Below are positions 29,970 through 64,000 of a stretch of 64,000 nucleotides of DNA, one piece after another (within the stretch, counting starts at the first letter, position 1; each line of letters begins with the position of its first letter). Origin of the DNA: an uncultured bacterium (GTDB lineage: Bacteria; Cyanobacteriota; Vampirovibrionia; Gastranaerophilales; Gastranaerophilaceae); NCBI GenBank assembly GCA_902788345.1, contig CADAJP010000001.1, positions 153,795-217,794 on the forward strand. The letters are read 5' to 3'. The position numbers were made by a program, and so were the translations under genes. A model generated the notes under the pieces. That model did no database searches. It was given only the letters and a program-made list of their open reading frames with translations, and was not told the DNA's origin.

Positions 29970-31319
29970 ATGAGTGCAGATATTGATAAATCTAATATTG
30001 AAGATTTAAAACATCGAGTTAGGCAAAAACTGAATGAAACGCAACTTCTTACATATAAAGGGTCTGTTTCAAAACTTTTGGGTTTGACTGTTGAGGTAAA
30101 ACTTCCGGGACTAAAAATCGGTGATTTATGTTTTATTGAAACTTATGACGGGAAACAAAAACCTGCAGAAGTTCAGGCTTTCAAGGGTGAGGTTGCTCAA
30201 CTGTCTTTATTGCTTGATGGCGGTGGTATCGGGCAGGGTAGTCTTGTTACATCGACAGGAAAGCCAATAATTATTCCTGTAGGTGATTTTTTATTAGGAA
30301 GACTGATTGATCCGATGGGTAATCCCATTGACGGAAGACCGCTTGACCTGACTGATGCATCATGGCGTGCTATTGAAGGGCCTCCTCCGGGTCCGTTTGA
30401 AAGACCAATTATTACTGAACAATTTTCAACAGGTGTCAGAGCAATTGACGGGTGCATGACAATGGGGTGCGGTCAACGTCTTGGTTTGTTTGCAGGGTCA
30501 GGAGTCGGTAAAAGTACTTTGTTGGGTATGATTGCAAGAAATTCTGATGCGGATGTAAACGTTGTTGCGTTAATTGGTGAACGTGGCAGAGAGGTTAAAG
30601 AATTTGTAGAAGATGCTCTTGGCCCTGAAGGTATGGCAAAATCTGTTTTAGTTTGTTCAACAGGTGATAAACCGCCGTTAATCAGACAAAAATGTCTTTT
30701 AACCGCAACTGCTGTTTGTGAATACTTTAGGGATCAGGGTAAAAAAGTTTTCTTAATGACTGATACTATAACTCGTTGTGCAATGGCAGGGCGTGAAGTC
30801 GGTTTATCATTAGGCGAGCCGCCGACAATGAAAGGGTATCCTCCGTCTATATTTTCCTGGCTGCAAAAAGCTTTAGAAAGGGCCGGAAACAGTGAAAAAG
30901 GCTCTATTACCGCTTTATACACCGTTCTTATGGAAGGGGATGATATAAACGATCCTATTGTTGATATTGTTCGTGGTATTGTTGATGGTCACATATTTTT
31001 ATCAAGAAAGGTTGCAGAATCCAATCATTATCCTGCTATTGATGTTTTGGGGAGTATTTCCCGTTTGATGAGTGCAATTGCATCTCCTGAACACAAAGAG
31101 GCTGCGGCAAAATTAAGGACAATAATGTCATTGTATCGTGAAAATAAGGATTTAATTGATGTTGGTATGTATCAGCCGGGGTCAAATCCTCGCCTTGATA
31201 CAGCTATTGAAATGATGCCGAAAATTAATGCATTTTTACAGCAAAGAACAAGTGAGAGTGTAACAATGGAAGGTACAATAAGTCAGCTTGTTGATATGAT
31301 GGAAGGAATTGAAATATAA
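29970..31319 (+). CDS. fliI: Flagellar/type III secretion ATPase (FliI/YscN family)
   Basis: Walker A LFAGSGVGKSTLLGMIAR, Walker B KVFLMTDTITR, and an F1-beta-like core (GYPPSIFS). Confidence 0.9.
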   Translation: MSADIDKSNIEDLKHRVRQKLNETQLLTYKGSVSKLLGLTVEVKLPGLKIGDLCFIETYDGKQKPAEVQAFKGEVAQLSLLLDGGGIGQGSLVTSTGKPIIIPVGDFLLGRLIDPMGNPIDGRPLDLTDASWRAIEGPPPGPFERPIITEQFSTGVRAIDGCMTMGCGQRLGLFAGSGVGKSTLLGMIARNSDADVNVVALIGERGREVKEFVEDALGPEGMAKSVLVCSTGDKPPLIRQKCLLTATAVCEYFRDQGKKVFLMTDTITRCAMAGREVGLSLGEPPTMKGYPPSIFSWLQKALERAGNSEKGSITALYTVLMEGDDINDPIVDIVRGIVDGHIFLSRKVAESNHYPAIDVLGSISRLMSAIASPEHKEAAAKLRTIMSLYRENKDLIDVGMYQPGSNPRLDTAIEMMPKINAFLQQRTSESVTMEGTISQLVDMMEGIEI

Positions 31320-52355: not shown

Positions 52356-53279
52356 TTATGCGGTCATATTATACTGAAAATTCGGTTTCATAATATCATC
52401 TGAATAAGGTTGGTTTTGAACTGCGAACGGATTATACGCACCCGGTGTATTTACTGCCGGCATTGCAGGGGTTTGAGGTGTTGGAACATTTCCTTGCATT
52501 GTCGGACTGTTTGTCATTTGCATTTGTGGGTTAGCAGCAGGAGTCTGTGCTATTTGTTCTGCTTGCGGATTTTGCATCCAGAACGGATTACCGTTTGGTT
52601 GATGTTCTTGTGCTTGTTCCGGAGTTTGCATTTGCTGTTGTTGTTCAATAAATGTTCTTAATTGTTCTTCTTTTTCAGCTTTTTCTTCCGAATAAGATTT
52701 ACCTACAATTTTACTTGCAAACCATTCACCTGCAATCCACCCTGCCATTGTACCGACAAAAGGAATTGGTATTACGGCTGAACCTATTGCGGCTCCTAAA
52801 CCGCCGCCTGTAAGTTTAGCAGTTGATTTAATTACTTCTGCTCCGCCCTGGAAGATGCCTTTTTCTTTTGTTGCTGTAAATATATTTGGAAGTTCAAACA
52901 ACATCATTGACAATGCACCAATAAACGGCATCTTTTTGCCAACGCCTTTGAAAAATCCTTTTGTGCCTTCTAAAAACACATTCCTACCGGTTAATCTTGC
53001 CGCTGATGTTTTTGTTAAAATATTTGATTTTATGCAAGGTATGAAATTTTTGAAGTTCTTTATAAAATTTTCGAAAAAATTTCCGGCACCGGCTTTTTCT
53101 AATGCGTGCCAGCCGGCCTGTGCTTTTGTAAATAATGAGCCGTTTGTTTTTCTTAAAGTTTCACCAATCGATTCACTAGCACTTCCAAAAATCAGTTCCG
53201 GAACTACCTCTCCTACACGTTTTGTGTAGCCCCAGGCTTTACCTAAATTGCTCATTGCCATTGATACGCCGCTAACCAT
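52356..53279 (-). CDS. Gly-zipper/Q-rich protein (paralogue of 46921..48042)
   Basis: GGGLGAAIGSAVIPIPFVGTMAGWIAGEWFASKIVGKSYSEE aligns with the paralogue. The Q/P-rich tail carries NPFWMQN and NPFAVQNQ. Confidence 0.6.
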   Translation of the reverse strand: MVSGVSMAMSNLGKAWGYTKRVGEVVPELIFGSASESIGETLRKTNGSLFTKAQAGWHALEKAGAGNFFENFIKNFKNFIPCIKSNILTKTSAARLTGRNVFLEGTKGFFKGVGKKMPFIGALSMMLFELPNIFTATKEKGIFQGGAEVIKSTAKLTGGGLGAAIGSAVIPIPFVGTMAGWIAGEWFASKIVGKSYSEEKAEKEEQLRTFIEQQQQMQTPEQAQEHQPNGNPFWMQNPQAEQIAQTPAANPQMQMTNSPTMQGNVPTPQTPAMPAVNTPGAYNPFAVQNQPYSDDIMKPNFQYNMTA

Positions 53280-53415: not shown

Positions 53416-53443
53416 TAAAGATATAAGAAAAAATGCCGACATA
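53416..53443 (+). promoter_or_regulatory. Sigma-28 (FliA/SigD)-like promoter
   Basis: TAAA (53416-19), 15 nt, then GCCGACAT(A) (53435-43). Compared with the consensus TAAA-N15-GCCGATAA/T. Lies 46 nt upstream of ATG 53490. Confidence 0.6.
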
Positions 53444-53489: not shown

Positions 53490-55010
53490 ATGGGAATGGC
53501 AGCATCACAAGGCAGATTGTTATTTATGACAGCCAGAATTTCAAACAACGAGTTTGAACAGCAGGCTGTTGCATATTCAAAGCAGCGTCTTGCTGATGAT
53601 TCACAAGAGGCTAATGACCAATACCTAGAAGCTTTACAACAGACAGAATATCAGGTATTGACAGGTTATTACGGTGATACGGCTCAATATGAAGCTGTTT
53701 CTTATAATATTTTAACCGGATTTAATAATGTAGCCCAAAGCAAACAGTACATTATCTCTGATAATAGAGGAAGAATTATTGTTCCTTCAGCTATTGCTCA
53801 GGCTTTTGAAAACTCAAAACATAACTACAATTTGTTTTTAGAAACAGTTGAAAGCAGTCAGGGTAATCATTTTACTCAAGTATCAGAAGAAAACATTACA
53901 GAAGGCATGGTTCATGATGCTTGGGATAAATACCTTTCATCAATAAATAGAGGTGATGTTAACGGTATCTATGCAGATGATGTTACCTCAGCTAATAAAC
54001 TAAGACATATTGTCGGATTTTCTTATAATGAAGTTGCAAGCGGTGATTCTGCAACAGATTATGTTACATATAATACTTCTTTTATCGGAAGCGGTGCAAA
54101 AAGAGTTTATCTGAATAAGGATAAGGATAATAACTACTACTATAATAACTATAAAGTTGAGGTTGAATCTTATATTGATGCAAACGGATTAACCCAGTAT
54201 GCCGCATATTTCCAGGCAACAGAAGAACCACAGGAAAATTCTGAAAAATGGTATCTTAATGAAATACAGGTTGAAGCAAGCGGAAATGACTTTATATTTA
54301 AAGACAGCAATGGTAAAAGAATTCAGGAAGATTCAAACGGGAATATTTACATTGAAAAACAAGACTTTAACTTAAATAATACGGTTAATGTTGTTAATAA
54401 TGCAACAACTAACAGAGGTACTGCTTCTGCGACTACCGAGAAAAATGTATTGTTCTATGAGGGCGGTACACCGGAACAAAGACAACTTTATGACTATGCA
54501 ATGGCATTAAACAAAAAATATGCCACACAATATAAGCCAAATTCGACAAAATTAACATATGATGCTGACAAGGTACAGTATTATAAAAATATCTTTAATG
54601 AAATGACCACAAAAGGTTATACAACATATGATGATATGATTAAAGATAAGTATATAAATACTGAAGCAGAATCTGAAACTACACCATTTGCAAGTAATGA
54701 ATGGCTTGTAAGATACGTAAAACAGGGCAAGTTTGTAATCTCGTTCTACAGTAAAAATGATGAAAGCTTTATTAAAACGACACTTGATGATGATGAGTCT
54801 ATTGTAAATAAAGAAGATAAATCAAAAATGGCTATTGCTGAACAGATTTATCAAACTCATATGGATAAAATTGAAGCAGAAGATAAAAGATTTGATATGG
54901 AGCTTACAAAACTTGAATCAGAACACTCGGCACTTGTTACCGAATATGATTCTGTTGCAAAAGTTATATCAAAGAATGTTGAAAAATCTTTTGGAATTTT
55001 CAACGCATAA
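53490..55010 (+). CDS. Unknown-family protein with conserved helical termini and an N/Y/T-rich variable centre (paralogue at 63526)
   Basis: N-terminus MGMAASQGRLLFMTARISNNEFEQQAVAYSKQRLADDSQEANDQYLEAL. C-terminus EDKRFDMELTKLESEHSALVTEYDSVAKVISKNVEKSFGIFNA. No signal peptide. Confidence 0.65.
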   Translation: MGMAASQGRLLFMTARISNNEFEQQAVAYSKQRLADDSQEANDQYLEALQQTEYQVLTGYYGDTAQYEAVSYNILTGFNNVAQSKQYIISDNRGRIIVPSAIAQAFENSKHNYNLFLETVESSQGNHFTQVSEENITEGMVHDAWDKYLSSINRGDVNGIYADDVTSANKLRHIVGFSYNEVASGDSATDYVTYNTSFIGSGAKRVYLNKDKDNNYYYNNYKVEVESYIDANGLTQYAAYFQATEEPQENSEKWYLNEIQVEASGNDFIFKDSNGKRIQEDSNGNIYIEKQDFNLNNTVNVVNNATTNRGTASATTEKNVLFYEGGTPEQRQLYDYAMALNKKYATQYKPNSTKLTYDADKVQYYKNIFNEMTTKGYTTYDDMIKDKYINTEAESETTPFASNEWLVRYVKQGKFVISFYSKNDESFIKTTLDDDESIVNKEDKSKMAIAEQIYQTHMDKIEAEDKRFDMELTKLESEHSALVTEYDSVAKVISKNVEKSFGIFNA

Positions 55011-63134: not shown

Positions 63135-63311
63135 TTAAGCAATAAAGTTAGTTCCAAATCTGTTTGCTCCTTGGAAAAATGACTGTTTCATCATTTCAGT
63201 TAAAGTCTTTCTGACTTTTCTTTTGTCATTCAAATTAACTTCGCTTATTGCTATAGATGTATCTTTATATGTATTTGTAACCGCATCAGAAAATAACAAC
63301 ATAGTTGCCAT
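63135..63311 (-). CDS. Small ORF (58 aa), hypothetical; too short for the ORF track
   Basis: ATG 63311..63309 is preceded by AGAGAGGA. Sequence is MATMLLFSDAVTNTYKDTSIAISEVNLNDKRKVRKTLTEMMKQSFFQGANRFGTNFIA. Promoter motif copy E lies upstream. Confidence 0.4.
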   Translation of the reverse strand: MATMLLFSDAVTNTYKDTSIAISEVNLNDKRKVRKTLTEMMKQSFFQGANRFGTNFIA

Positions 63312-63370: not shown

Positions 63371-63415
63371 CTTACATATATATAAAAACTCCACTTAAAA
63401 AAATATTGACTTTTT
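63371..63415 (-). promoter_or_regulatory. Copy E of the recurrent promoter-like motif
   Basis: Minus strand reads aaaaagTCAATA-tttttttaagtggag-TTTTTATATATATGTAAG. Confidence 0.5.
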
Positions 63416-63468
63416 ATATTCAATTTATATAAATTTTGTTACATTACTTTACATTAACTCTAAAAAAC

Positions 63469-63498
63469 TAAAGAATAATTGCATTTGTGCCGTCATAA
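63469..63498 (+). promoter_or_regulatory. Second sigma-28-like promoter
   Basis: TAAA (63469-72), 16 nt, then GCCGTCATAA (63489-98). The upstream CTCTAAAAAACTAAAG is shared with locus 53404-53420. Confidence 0.5.
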
Positions 63499-63525
63499 AG
63501 AATATCAGATAATAAAGGAATAATT

Positions 63526-64000
63526 ATGGGATTATCATCTTCACAAGGACGATTACTAACAATTACGGCAAGACTCACATCAAATGAATATGAGTCACAG
63601 CAGATTTCGAATGCAAAAATGCGTCTTGCAGTTCAATCACAGGAAGCAAGTGAAGAGTATATTGGCGAATTAAATAAACAAGTATTCAACGTAGTTTCAT
63701 ATGACAGCAGTGGTAATATGACTTCAACCCCATTAACTGCAGGTTCATTGTATGAATATAACGATACAAAAAATCAATATATACTTACAAATTCTTCAGG
63801 AAAACCTATTTTAAACCACAAGGATGCCGAGAATTACAGAAATTCAAGAAACTTAGAAGATTTCTTAAGTAAATACGGCTTGAAAAAAATATTCAAAACT
63901 CAGGCTTTAGCTGATGCATACGCAGATGTAAGAGCAAAAATGGGCTATGATGCTAATGGCAATTATAATAAAAGAAATGACTATAAAGCTCAATATGATG
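63526..64000 (+). CDS. Paralogue of 53490..55010 (5' part; runs off the window end)
   Basis: MGLSSSQGRLLTITARLTSNEYESQQISNAKMRLAVQSQEASEEYIGEL aligns residue for residue with the N-terminus of the 53490 protein. Confidence 0.6.
   Translation, partial: MGLSSSQGRLLTITARLTSNEYESQQISNAKMRLAVQSQEASEEYIGELNKQVFNVVSYDSSGNMTSTPLTAGSLYEYNDTKNQYILTNSSGKPILNHKDAENYRNSRNLEDFLSKYGLKKIFKTQALADAYADVRAKMGYDANGNYNKRNDYKAQYD

What the first reader, a model, noticed from the sequence alone, without database searches (positions are those of the whole stretch)
63458..64000. Second copy of the sigma-28-like promoter and paralogous gene at the window end
CTCTAAAAAACTAAAG (63458-73) is almost identical to CTCTAAAAAAACTAAAG at 53404-20. 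It is followed after 16 nt by GCCGTCATAA (63489-98). The gene starting at 63526 encodes MGLSSSQGRLLTITARLTSNEYESQQISNAKMRLAVQSQEASEEYIGEL. Its first ~50 residues are colinear with the 53490 protein and it then diverges. Conservation of both the promoter and the N-terminal segment across paralogues suggests selection on each. The pattern parallels multi-flagellin loci.
Basis: seen in the sequence. Interest (0 to 1): 0.6.

Follow-up and report, generated by a model that had tools for sequence, protein, structure and literature searches.

The report
Sigma-28 promoter driving hairpin-family gene
The window ends in a real, deeply conserved flagellar-type (sigma-28) promoter. It drives one of about eleven paralogues of an undescribed two-helix "hairpin" protein family of gut non-photosynthetic cyanobacteria. 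The family is laid out like flagellin but is not flagellin, and it may be what these bacteria's leftover flagellar export machine secretes.

Summary
**Observation.** It is confirmed. TAAAG-N15-GCCGTCAT (63469-63496) lies 29 nt upstream of the ATG at 63526. It parallels TAAAG-N14-GCCGACAT at 53416-53442. That pattern occurs twice in the window and never in 100 shuffles.

**Gene.** The cut gene is 438 aa in full. Its C-terminus is also conserved with the 506-aa paralogue (42% over 67 aa).

**Family and promoter.**
- The genome holds 9 complete copies plus 3 fragments at contig ends.
- 8 of 11 gene starts carry a strong sigma-28-type box and 10 of 11 a recognisable one.
- In 59 orthologues from other species, 55 keep TAAAG-N15-(G)CCGA. 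The boxes are invariant and the spacer is free.

**What the protein is.**
- The family core is a 109-aa helical hairpin found across Vampirovibrionia. Here a 325-aa domain is inserted at the hairpin tip.
- It is not flagellin: there are no Pfam, NCBIfam or PDB hits, hhalign gives 1% probability, and Foldseek finds nothing significant.

**Context.** The genome has FliA, FlhA, FlhB, FliI, FliF, FliE, FliH and rod genes. It has no flagellin and no hook.

**Best reading.** This is a FliA-dependent late gene for a probable exported or polymerising subunit. Regulation is well supported. Export is only inferred. The family is undescribed in the literature I could search, but this scan has met it in several other genomes.

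The parts
63469..63476 (+). -35 element TAAAGAAT of the sigma-28-type promoter
   Evidence: Read directly. TAAAG is invariant (2.0 bits per position) in 55 orthologous loci anchored on it.
63489..63496 (+). -10 element GCCGTCAT, 12 nt after the -35 octamer (TAAA-N16-GCCG)
   Evidence: The orthologue consensus is GCCGAT(A/T)A, at 1.41 bits per position against 0.46 in the spacer. It ends 29 nt before the ATG here and 34-36 nt before it in most orthologues.
63514..63519 (+). Shine-Dalgarno AAAGGA
   Evidence: AAAGGA is invariant in the 9-locus alignment. GAAAGGA recurs before other paralogues.
63526..64000 (+). First 158 codons of the 438-aa hairpin-family gene. The full gene is G000:C1:217320-218636 and would end at window coordinate 64842.
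   Evidence: -.
- Full-length orthologues are 38-93% identical.
- The AlphaFold2 model has pLDDT 86.3, with an N helix at 3-49, an alpha/beta insert, and a C helix at 376-437.
- A terminator lies 35 nt after the stop.
63436..63453 (+). Conserved upstream box TTGTTACA-N4-TTTACA, about 16-33 nt upstream of the -35. It is a candidate regulator site or UP-like element.
   Evidence: It is conserved in orthologous loci. Similar TTGTWACA boxes lie upstream of most other paralogue promoters. Its function was not tested.
63372..63433 (.). Nearly invariant intergenic block. It holds TTACATATATATAAAAAC (probably the leftward promoter of the 58-aa gene) and TTGACT-N16-TATAAA (a sigma-70-like promoter pointing rightward).
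   Evidence: Earlier AI notes e1-3048927 and e1-3048931 describe the leftward element. Neither reading was tested here beyond conservation.
63135..63311 (-). Divergent 58-aa gene (MATMLLFSDAV...GANRFGTNFIA), a syntenic partner of the 438-aa gene
   Evidence: It lies within 450 nt upstream of 55 of 59 orthologues. It has no Pfam or PHROG hit.
53416..53442 (+). The first promoter copy, TAAAGATA-N11-GCCGACAT
   Evidence: score 23.5.
53490..55010 (+). The 506-aa paralogue of the same family
29970..31319 (+). FliI/YscN-family export ATPase, part of the reduced flagellar-type export apparatus of this genome
   Evidence: TIGR01026 scores 547.8 bits against a cut-off of 379.5.

Best explanation
**Shown.**
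- Positions 63469-63496 form a sigma-28 (FliA)-type promoter.
- It drives a monocistronic gene: a short leader with an AAAGGA ribosome-binding site, a 438-aa ORF, and an intrinsic terminator.
- The protein belongs to a large, unnamed family restricted, as far as I can see, to Vampirovibrionia (Melainabacteria).
- The family core is a 109-aa two-helix hairpin. It starts MG(L/M)xASQ(A/G)R, has a P-x-S-P turn, and ends ...VxKVIxKNIxxSFKxF.
- In this gene a conserved 325-aa alpha/beta domain is inserted at the hairpin tip.
- The genome is a 1.85-Mb Gastranaerophilaceae-type MAG with at least 11 such genes. Almost all have the same promoter type.
- The genome has one FliA gene and a flagellar-type export core with rod (FlhA, FlhB, FliI, FliH, FliF, FliE, FlgB, FlgC, FlgF/G). 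It has no flagellin, no hook and no FlgK.

**Inferred.**
- FliA-RNA polymerase transcribes these genes as a late class.
- The products have no signal peptide. They are probably exported through the reduced flagellar type III apparatus.
- They probably assemble through the near-invariant hairpin into a surface or extracellular polymer that displays the variable tip domains. The 438-aa protein would be a conserved, specialised member.

**Odds.** Regulation about 0.85. Family membership about 0.99. Export or polymer formation about 0.4.
For: **Promoter**
- The sequence matches the textbook sigma-28 consensus TAAA-N15/16-GCCGATAA.
- The genome has 27 sites scoring 22 or more, against 3.7 in shuffles, and they are mostly intergenic.
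- 8 of 11 family gene starts score 22 or more and 10 of 11 score 20 or more. Among all 1583 ORFs of 100 aa or more, family members included, 15 reach 22.
- 55 of 59 orthologues in other species keep TAAAG-N15-(G)CCGA at a fixed distance. The reverse-strand and far-upstream controls gave 0 of 59. Boxes carry 2.0 and 1.4 bits per position against 0.46 in the spacer.
- The same box precedes hairpin genes in other families of the class.
- The cognate factor is present: TIGR02479 scores 235 bits against a cut-off of 189.6.

**Family**
- Paralogue census.
- 3910 and 652 homologues were found in the two searches, none with a Pfam domain and none with an informative name.
- 109-aa minimal forms occur in four other families of the class, including Vampirovibrio chlorellavorus.
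- 3072 representatives of 109 to about 770 aa have N and C stretches flanking inserts.
- The hairpin models are confident, with pLDDT 86 and 89.5.

**Context**
- Export apparatus genes.
- No flagellin or hook.
- All 125 family-positive genomes of 251 are FlhA-positive.
- The same promoter type precedes a 1077-aa protein with an ADP-ribosyltransferase exoenzyme domain, which hints at a secreted regulon.
- A preprint (10.64898/2026.04.24.720558) says the partial flagellar sets of Gastranaerophilales are postulated to serve secretion.
Against: - There are no transcript data.
- Nothing shows export.
- The hairpin family coexists with canonical flagellins in families f2, f5, f9 and f11 and in genus g15. 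It is absent from four FlhA-positive families: f4 and f10, which have flagellin, and f6 and f7, which lack it. It is therefore neither a simple flagellin replacement nor needed by every reduced apparatus.
- FliA is also kept in f7 and in most f6 genomes, which have neither flagellin nor the hairpin family. FliA retention is thus not explained by this family.
- The co-occurrence with FlhA is confounded by phylogeny.
- There is no sequence, profile or fold link to any axial or needle protein.
- The genes do not sit beside export genes.
- One paralogue, the apparent ancestral one with the conserved partner gene, lacks the promoter.
Confidence: 0.55

Rival explanations
1. The family is an intracellular coiled-coil protein family that FliA happens to control. 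It could be a scaffold, cytoskeletal polymer, chaperone or regulator of the export apparatus. It is never exported.
For: - The best geometric matches of the 109-aa model are generic long hairpins. They include the flagellar regulator HP0958 and its Chlamydia relative CT398 (TM up to 0.88) and prefoldin, all at non-significant E-values.
- The helices are predicted to be folded from residue 3.
- The family is present in fully flagellated relatives without any flagellar gene neighbourhood.
- The family is absent from other lineages that have the export apparatus.
- FliA/WhiG-type factors control non-flagellar genes in other phyla (my own knowledge: Streptomyces WhiG, Chlamydia sigma-28).
Against: - Large, paralogue-specific domains rich in N/S/T/G/Y/D (42-48% of the middle) are inserted exactly at the hairpin tip. 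Together with 9-19 copies per genome, this fits displayed surface domains better than a chaperone or regulator.
- Conservation covers all faces of both helices (78% mean column identity), as in packed polymers.
- A conserved partner gene has glycine-rich hydrophobic segments.
- An ADP-ribosyltransferase-domain protein sits behind the same promoter type.
Confidence: 0.3
2. The family is the true, extremely diverged filament (and hook or junction) set of a working flagellum in flagellin-less Gastranaerophilaceae. On this view the reader's multi-flagellin parallel is literal.
For: - 72 of 74 genomes of the window's own family lack Flagellin_N yet keep FlhA and FliA, and all have the hairpin family.
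- No hook or FlgK is detectable, while rod genes are kept.
- The paralogues fall into size classes (341-478, 438-506 and 597-844 aa), which could mimic filament, junction and cap roles.
Against: - hhalign probability against class flagellins is 1.1%.
- There are no Pfam Flagellin_N or Flagellin_C hits.
- Foldseek finds no flagellin.
- The same family coexists with normal flagellins in four other families and in genus g15.
- The gene at the fliG position has no FliG signature, and no MotA was recognised, so a rotating motor is doubtful. I made no complete inventory of the switch, the stator or FliPQR.
Confidence: 0.08
3. The two promoter-like strings are chance AT-rich matches, and the shared N-terminus reflects low-complexity coiled coil.
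For: The genome is 33% G+C, so TAAA-rich strings are common. 257 loose matches to TAAA-N15-17-CCG[AT][ACT]A exist.
Against: - The pattern occurs in 0 of 100 shuffles.
- Strong sites are enriched 7-fold genome-wide.
- 55 of 59 orthologues keep the boxes with a free spacer.
- The protein matches have E 1e-15 and 2e-12.
Confidence: 0.02

Closest known systems
Sigma-28 (FliA / SigD / WhiG) late-class promoters. The consensus is TAAA-N15-GCCGATAA or GCCGATAT (my own knowledge of E. coli/Salmonella class 3 and B. subtilis SigD promoters).
   Same: - The same two boxes and spacing.
- The same position just upstream of monocistronic genes.
- The cognate FliA-family factor is encoded in the genome.
   Different: - In this genome the target genes are not flagellin, motor or chemotaxis genes but an unannotated hairpin family and other lineage-specific proteins.
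- The -10 element often reads GCCGACAT.
- An extra conserved TTGTWACA box lies upstream.
Flagellin (FliC/Hag; Pfam PF00669 and PF00700) and flagellin-like secreted proteins such as Campylobacter FlaC (my own knowledge)
   Same: - Conserved helical N- and C-termini that pair up.
- A variable middle domain inserted at the tip.
- Many paralogues.
- No signal peptide.
- Sigma-28 control.
   Different: - No sequence, profile or fold relationship.
- The conserved ends are only about 45 and 60 aa, a single hairpin without a D1-like domain.
- The family coexists with real flagellins in relatives.
Type III needle and filament subunits and the translocator coiled coils (SctF family, IpaB-type hairpin)
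   Same: - A small helix-turn-helix hairpin with a proline-containing turn (P-x-S-P).
- The top Foldseek geometry match is the IpaB coiled-coil hairpin (TM 0.84).
   Different: - That match has E 0.03, which is not significant.
- No T3SS_needle_F Pfam hit appears even at E 10.
- The helices are about twice as long as in needle subunits.
- The apparatus here is flagellar-type, not an injectisome.
FadA adhesin of Fusobacterium, a helical hairpin that forms filaments
   Same: A helical hairpin of about 110 aa. It appears among the fold matches with TM 0.55-0.59.
   Different: FadA has a Sec signal peptide. It has no tip inserts and no sigma-28 link. The match is not significant.
Reduced flagellar systems used or proposed for secretion: Buchnera basal bodies (my own knowledge) and Gastranaerophilales partial sets (bioRxiv 10.64898/2026.04.24.720558)
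   Same: The export gate, ATPase and rod are kept and flagellin is lost.
   Different: No cargo family or regulon has been proposed for Gastranaerophilales in the papers I could search.

Membership tests
Sigma-28 (FliA)-dependent promoter class | -35 TAAA(G) and -10 GCCGATAA-like boxes separated by 15-16 nt from TAAA | tested here: met
   TAAAG-N15-GCCGTCAT at 63469-63496. Score 22 on the genome scan.
Sigma-28 (FliA)-dependent promoter class | A cognate FliA/WhiG-family sigma factor is encoded by the organism | tested here: met
   C6:72542-73366(-). TIGR02479 scores 235 bits against a cut-off of 189.6, and NF005413 scores 218 against 201.
Sigma-28 (FliA)-dependent promoter class | Boxes conserved and spacer free in orthologous loci (phylogenetic footprint) | tested here: met
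   55 of 59 orthologues keep the boxes. Information content is 2.0 and 1.41 bits per position in the boxes against 0.46 in the spacer. Controls gave 0 of 59.
Sigma-28 (FliA)-dependent promoter class | A transcript start downstream of the -10 element, and dependence on FliA | not testable with these tools
No culture or in vitro system is available.
Flagellin (PF00669 Flagellin_N + PF00700 Flagellin_C) | A match to the N- and C-terminal flagellin domain models | tested here: not met
   - No hit at E of 1 or less for the 506-aa protein and the 158-aa window part of the 438-aa protein, nor at E of 10 or less for the minimal forms.
- The genome-wide best Flagellin_N hit is 18 bits, in a NadC-like ORF.
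- Flagellin_C scores at most 13.7 bits.
Flagellin (PF00669 Flagellin_N + PF00700 Flagellin_C) | Profile-profile or fold similarity to flagellin | tested here: not met
   hhalign probability is 1.1% against flagellins of the same class. Foldseek against the PDB finds no flagellin and nothing at E of 0.001 or less.
Flagellin (PF00669 Flagellin_N + PF00700 Flagellin_C) | Conserved paired terminal helices with a variable central domain | tested here: met
   This is a resemblance of layout only.
Type III needle subunit (SctF, Pfam T3SS_needle_F) | A match to the family model, and an approximately 80-aa hairpin | tested here: not met
   No such Pfam hit at E of 10 or less. The hairpin is 109 aa with helices of 43 and 56 residues.
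Unnamed Vampirovibrionia helical-hairpin family (defined here by alignments A2 and A3) | An N-terminal MG(L/M)xxSQ(A/G)R...TAR helix and a C-terminal ...TE.D.VK..I.KN...SFK.F helix that match the family profile | tested here: met
   The 438-aa protein has both. The A3 profile hits the genome at 2e-19. The A2 profile hits all own-family genomes.
Substrates of the flagellar type III export apparatus | Export that depends on FlhA/FlhB/FliI | not testable with these tools
   Only circumstantial evidence exists: no signal peptide, sigma-28 control, and co-occurrence with FlhA in 125 of 125 genomes.

The most novel reading that the evidence does not exclude
The hairpin family builds a previously unknown extracellular appendage. 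It would be assembled by the hook-less, flagellin-less flagellar export apparatus and rod of gut Gastranaerophilaceae.
- Bare or small hairpins would form the shaft.
- Long paralogues would display swappable tip domains.
- The 438-aa protein, conserved as a 1:1 orthologue with its own conserved promoter and divergent 58-aa partner gene, would be a specialised junction-, cap- or adhesin-type subunit.
- FliA would time its synthesis, as for late flagellar genes.
Probability: 0.2. Interest if true: 0.9.

Novelty: new variant of a known kind. Interest (0 to 1): 0.6.

Why it matters
**Open question.** Gastranaerophilales are widespread gut relatives of cyanobacteria. Their "incomplete flagella" have been debated since the first genomes: motile or not, and secretion or relic.

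**What this gives.** A lineage-wide, FliA-controlled family of hairpin proteins with variable tip domains is a concrete candidate for what the reduced apparatus exports or builds. The conserved promoter gives a handle to define the whole regulon. In this genome that regulon also includes an ADP-ribosyltransferase-domain protein.

**If confirmed.** It would be a case of a flagellar export system re-used with a non-homologous cargo or filament family. It would also add a large new protein family, with more than 3000 clusters at 50% identity, to annotation resources.

**If export is refuted.** It would still be a clear example of a sigma-28 regulon re-targeted to non-flagellar genes.

Tried and rejected
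- **Flagellin homology: rejected.** I tried Pfam and NCBIfam scans, a PDB sequence search, profile-profile comparison with class flagellins, and Foldseek on two confident models.
- **The single weak Flagellin_N hit in the genome** (C9:21260-21460, 18 bits) lies in a NadC-like ORF and is spurious.
- **Needle-subunit membership: rejected**.
- **Phage origin: rejected.** PHROGs gave nothing meaningful. The one "phage" record with a 60%-identical hairpin (MW495066.1) carries secDF, smc, scpAB and acpS, so it looks like bacterial chromosome.
- **FliA retention test: not discriminating.** I asked whether FliA is kept only where flagellin or the hairpin family exists. FliA tracks FlhA, including in families that have neither.
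- **Promoters in flagellated relatives.** Four canonical flagellin genes of relatives showed no clear sigma-28 box in my simple scan. I could not compare the two gene classes there.
- **One wasted search.** A family-wide search with the 438-aa protein at E 1e-40 was too strict and found only a congener. I replaced it with the look-up of encoding contigs and the search for related loci.
- **Motor and switch inventory: incomplete.** Regex and Pfam found a MotB-like OmpA protein. They found no MotA, no FliG signature at the fliG position, and no fliPQR trio by size. This is not proof of absence.

Full report
**1.
- All strings sit at the stated coordinates, and the ORF from 63526 translates as quoted.
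- Counted from TAAAG the spacer is 15 nt (TAAA-N16-GCCG). The copy at 53416-53442 has TAAAG-N14 (TAAA-N15).
- TAAAG-N14/15-GCCGNCAT occurs exactly twice in the window and in none of 100 dinucleotide-preserving shuffles.
- The two proteins align at the N-terminus with 32% identity over 111 aa, E 1e-15. Over the first 45 aa the identity is 53%.

**2. Completing the gene.**
- The window is C1:153795-217794 of a 1.85-Mb, 21-contig, 98.8%-complete genome with 33% G+C.
- The cut gene runs to C1:218636 and encodes 438 aa.
- Its C-terminus matches that of the 506-aa paralogue at 42% identity over 67 aa, E 2e-12.
- An intrinsic terminator follows 35 nt after the stop, so the gene is monocistronic.

**3. 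Family census in this genome.**
- There are nine complete paralogues of 341-844 aa and three fragments at contig ends.
- All share an N-terminal helix starting MG(L/M)xxSQ(A/G)R and a C-terminal helix ending ...VxKVIxKNIxxSFKxF.
- By N-terminus the 438-aa protein is closest to the 844-aa paralogue (71%), then to the 506-aa one (53%).

**4. The promoter is real and of the sigma-28 type.**

*Within the genome:*
- A two-block scan for TAAAGTTT-N11/12-GCCGACAT finds 27 sites scoring 22 or more, against 3.7 +/- 1.9 in shuffled genomes.
- Twenty of the 27 are outside long ORFs, although about 83% of the genome is inside them.
- Eight of 11 family gene starts score 22 or more and 10 of 11 score 20 or more. 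Among all 1583 ORFs of 100 aa or more, family members included, 15 reach 22.
- The -10 box ends 29-48 nt before each ATG.
- The scoring matrix was tuned on these promoters. However, its consensus is the textbook FliA/SigD consensus.

*Across species:*
- I fetched orthologous loci. The record titles name Candidatus Gastranaerophilales, Gastranaerophilaceae or Melainabacteria.
- 59 of them are full-length orthologues from other species. In 55 of these, TAAAG-N15-(G)CCGA lies at a nearly fixed distance from the ATG.
- No site scoring 20 or more occurs on the reverse strand or further upstream of the same loci.
- Anchored on TAAAG, information content is 2.0 bits per position in the -35 box and 1.41 in the -10 box. 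In the spacer it is 0.46. That is the signature of a promoter, not of a conserved RNA or a coding remnant.

*The cognate factor:* the genome encodes one FliA/WhiG-family sigma factor above the curated cut-offs.

**5. What the protein is.**
- No Pfam, NCBIfam, PHROG or PDB sequence hit explains any member.
- Homologues are numerous. The two searches found 3910 and 652 clusters. Most carry no name, and the named ones are "hypothetical".
- The 438-aa protein has full-length orthologues at 38-93% identity. Among them the N helix is 83% identical, the C helix 71% and the insert 40%.
- AlphaFold2 on a 65-sequence alignment gives pLDDT 86.3. The model has an N helix at 3-49, a mixed alpha/beta insert, and a C helix at 376-437.
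- In four other families of the class the same two helices occur alone, as strictly 109-aa proteins in 3 to more than 16 copies per genome. One such protein is named as Vampirovibrio chlorellavorus.
- These minimal forms show 78% mean column identity and an invariant proline in the turn. They are modelled as a plain hairpin with pLDDT 89.5.
- An exhaustive profile search finds 3072 representatives of 109 to about 770 aa, in which N and C stretches flank inserts of every size.
- The family is therefore a hairpin scaffold with domains inserted at its tip.
- Foldseek finds nothing significant for either model. The geometric look-alikes of the bare hairpin are generic: the IpaB coiled coil, HP0958/CT398, FadA and prefoldin, all at E of 0.03 or more.
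- Profile-profile comparison with flagellins of the same class gives 1.1% probability.

**6. Context.**

*This genome:*
- It has FliE, FliF, FliH, FlhA, FlhB and FliA in one region of contig 6.
- It has FliI inside the window at 29970-31319, and FlgB, FlgC and two FlgF/G-type rod proteins on contig 10.
- It has no Flagellin_N or Flagellin_C. Only three Flg_bbr_C matches exist, all in rod genes, so there is no hook and no FlgK.
- The gene at the fliG position has no FliG signature and no MotA was recognised. That inventory is incomplete.

*Across 251 genomes of the class:*
- The hairpin family is in 125: all 74 of the window's own family plus families f2, f5, f9 and f11. Two different profiles give the same result.
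- All 125 have FlhA, which 177 genomes have in total.
- Flagellin is present in f2, f4, f5, f9, f10 and f11, but in only 2 of the 74 own-family genomes.
- FliA follows FlhA.
- The family is thus confined to lineages that have a flagellar-type export system. It is not a substitute for flagellin, because it coexists with flagellin. It is not universal among reduced systems, because f6 and f7 lack it.
- This co-occurrence is confounded by phylogeny.

*Literature:* a recent preprint reports that about a quarter of Gastranaerophilales have full flagellar sets. The rest keep genes such as flhB, fliI and flgG, postulated to serve secretion. I found no paper describing this family or its promoter.

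**7. Further links.**
- A conserved three-gene module occurs in other families of the class and in GenBank MW495066.1. It consists of a hairpin gene, a glycine-rich "MSYKN..." partner of 273-320 aa, and a small gene.
- In this genome the partner directly follows the 349-aa paralogue. That paralogue is the only one without the sigma-28 box.
- In MW495066.1 the module has TAAAG-N15-TCCGATAA upstream. Several hairpin genes of f9 and f11 have similar boxes. The promoter-family link is therefore older than the window's own family.
- Other sites of the same type in this genome precede lineage-specific proteins. One is a 1077-aa protein with a C-terminal ADP-ribosyltransferase exoenzyme domain (PF03496, E 4e-14). 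Another is a LysM protein beside flhA.

**8. Mechanism.**

*Shown:*
- the promoter anatomy and its conservation;
- the presence of FliA;
- family membership and hairpin-plus-insert architecture;
- the reduced flagellar gene set.

*Inferred:*
- FliA dependence;
- export through the flagellar-type gate;
- assembly through the hairpin.

The inference rests on the following:
- there is no signal peptide;
- both helices are conserved on all faces;
- the inserts sit at the tip;
- copy number is high;
- the family is under late-flagellar-type control;
- it is restricted to FlhA-positive lineages.

*Odds:*

| Reading | Probability |
|---|---|
| Regulation by FliA | 0.85 |
| Export or polymer formation | about 0.4 |
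| Intracellular coiled-coil role | about 0.3 |
| Literal diverged flagellar filament | about 0.08 |
| Chance | about 0.02 |

**9. Standing.**
- Earlier AI notes of this scan describe the same family and the same idea in this genome and in others. They are not independent evidence.
  - the completed gene with its conserved C-terminus and terminator;
  - the 59-species promoter footprint;
  - the conserved divergent 58-aa partner gene;
  - the class-wide four-way comparison of family, FlhA, flagellin and FliA;
  - the finding that a "phage" record carrying the module is bacterial.

Noticed in passing
window 63135-63311 (-): A 58-aa gene (MATMLLFSDAV...KQSFFQGANRFGTNFIA) lies divergent from the 438-aa gene. 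It is present within 450 nt upstream of 55 of 59 orthologues in other species, whatever the outer flanks. It is single-copy in this genome and has no Pfam or PHROG hit. Function unknown.
   Followed up: partly
window 63372-63453: This intergenic block is conserved more strongly than the flanking coding DNA across genera. It holds TTACATATATATAAAAAC, a sigma-70-like TTGACT-N16-TATAAA pointing at the 438-aa gene, and TTGTTACA-N4-TTTACA. A TTGTWACA box also lies 22-35 nt upstream of the -35 of most other paralogues. It is a candidate regulator site.
   Followed up: partly
L002:2852-3090 (G000:C1:218671-218909, just past the window end): Directly after the terminator of the 438-aa gene, another TAAAGTTT-N11-GCCGTATA box precedes a small ORF (46 aa from the ATG). 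The gene caller also called this ORF, at 61-62 aa, in close relatives.
   Followed up: no
G000:C2:297751-301048 (+): A sigma-28-type box (score 23) precedes a 1077-aa protein. The protein has a glycine-zipper-like region and a C-terminal ADP-ribosyltransferase exoenzyme domain (PF03496, E 4e-14). It looks like a toxin or effector in the same regulon.
   Followed up: partly
L074 (GenBank MW495066.1, 124602-140928): The record 'Microcystis phage MaAM05' (273,876 bp) carries secDF, smc, scpA, scpB and acpS. It also carries the hairpin + MSYKN-partner + small-gene module with a sigma-28-type box. It looks like a piece of a Vampirovibrionia-type bacterial chromosome rather than a phage genome.
   Followed up: partly
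G000:C6:144230-146122 (-): A conserved two-gene module: the 349-aa hairpin paralogue followed by a 273-aa glycine-rich 'MSYKN...' protein. The same pairing occurs in distant families of the class. The partner's C-terminal helix faintly resembles the family's C-terminal helix.
   Followed up: partly
class-wide FlhA search; G000:C6:63178-65283 (-): FlhA genes of the class fall into two score classes, about 1e-260 and about 1e-218 against PF00771. This genome has only the lower-scoring type. Genus g15 of the own family and family f4 have both. This hints at two paralogous flagellar-type export systems in the class.
   Followed up: no
G000:C6:65985-67037 (-) and C2:100784-102388 (+): The 350-aa gene at the fliG position between fliF and fliH has no FliG Pfam signature. 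A MotB-like OmpA protein follows a 300-aa membrane protein that has no MotA_ExbB match. The motor may be lost or strongly diverged.
   Followed up: partly
window 52356-53279 (-), G000:C6:146327-147439 (-): Glycine-zipper proteins without signal peptides recur next to hairpin genes. Examples are the 307-aa protein divergent from the 506-aa paralogue and the 370-aa protein upstream of the 349-aa paralogue.
   Followed up: no
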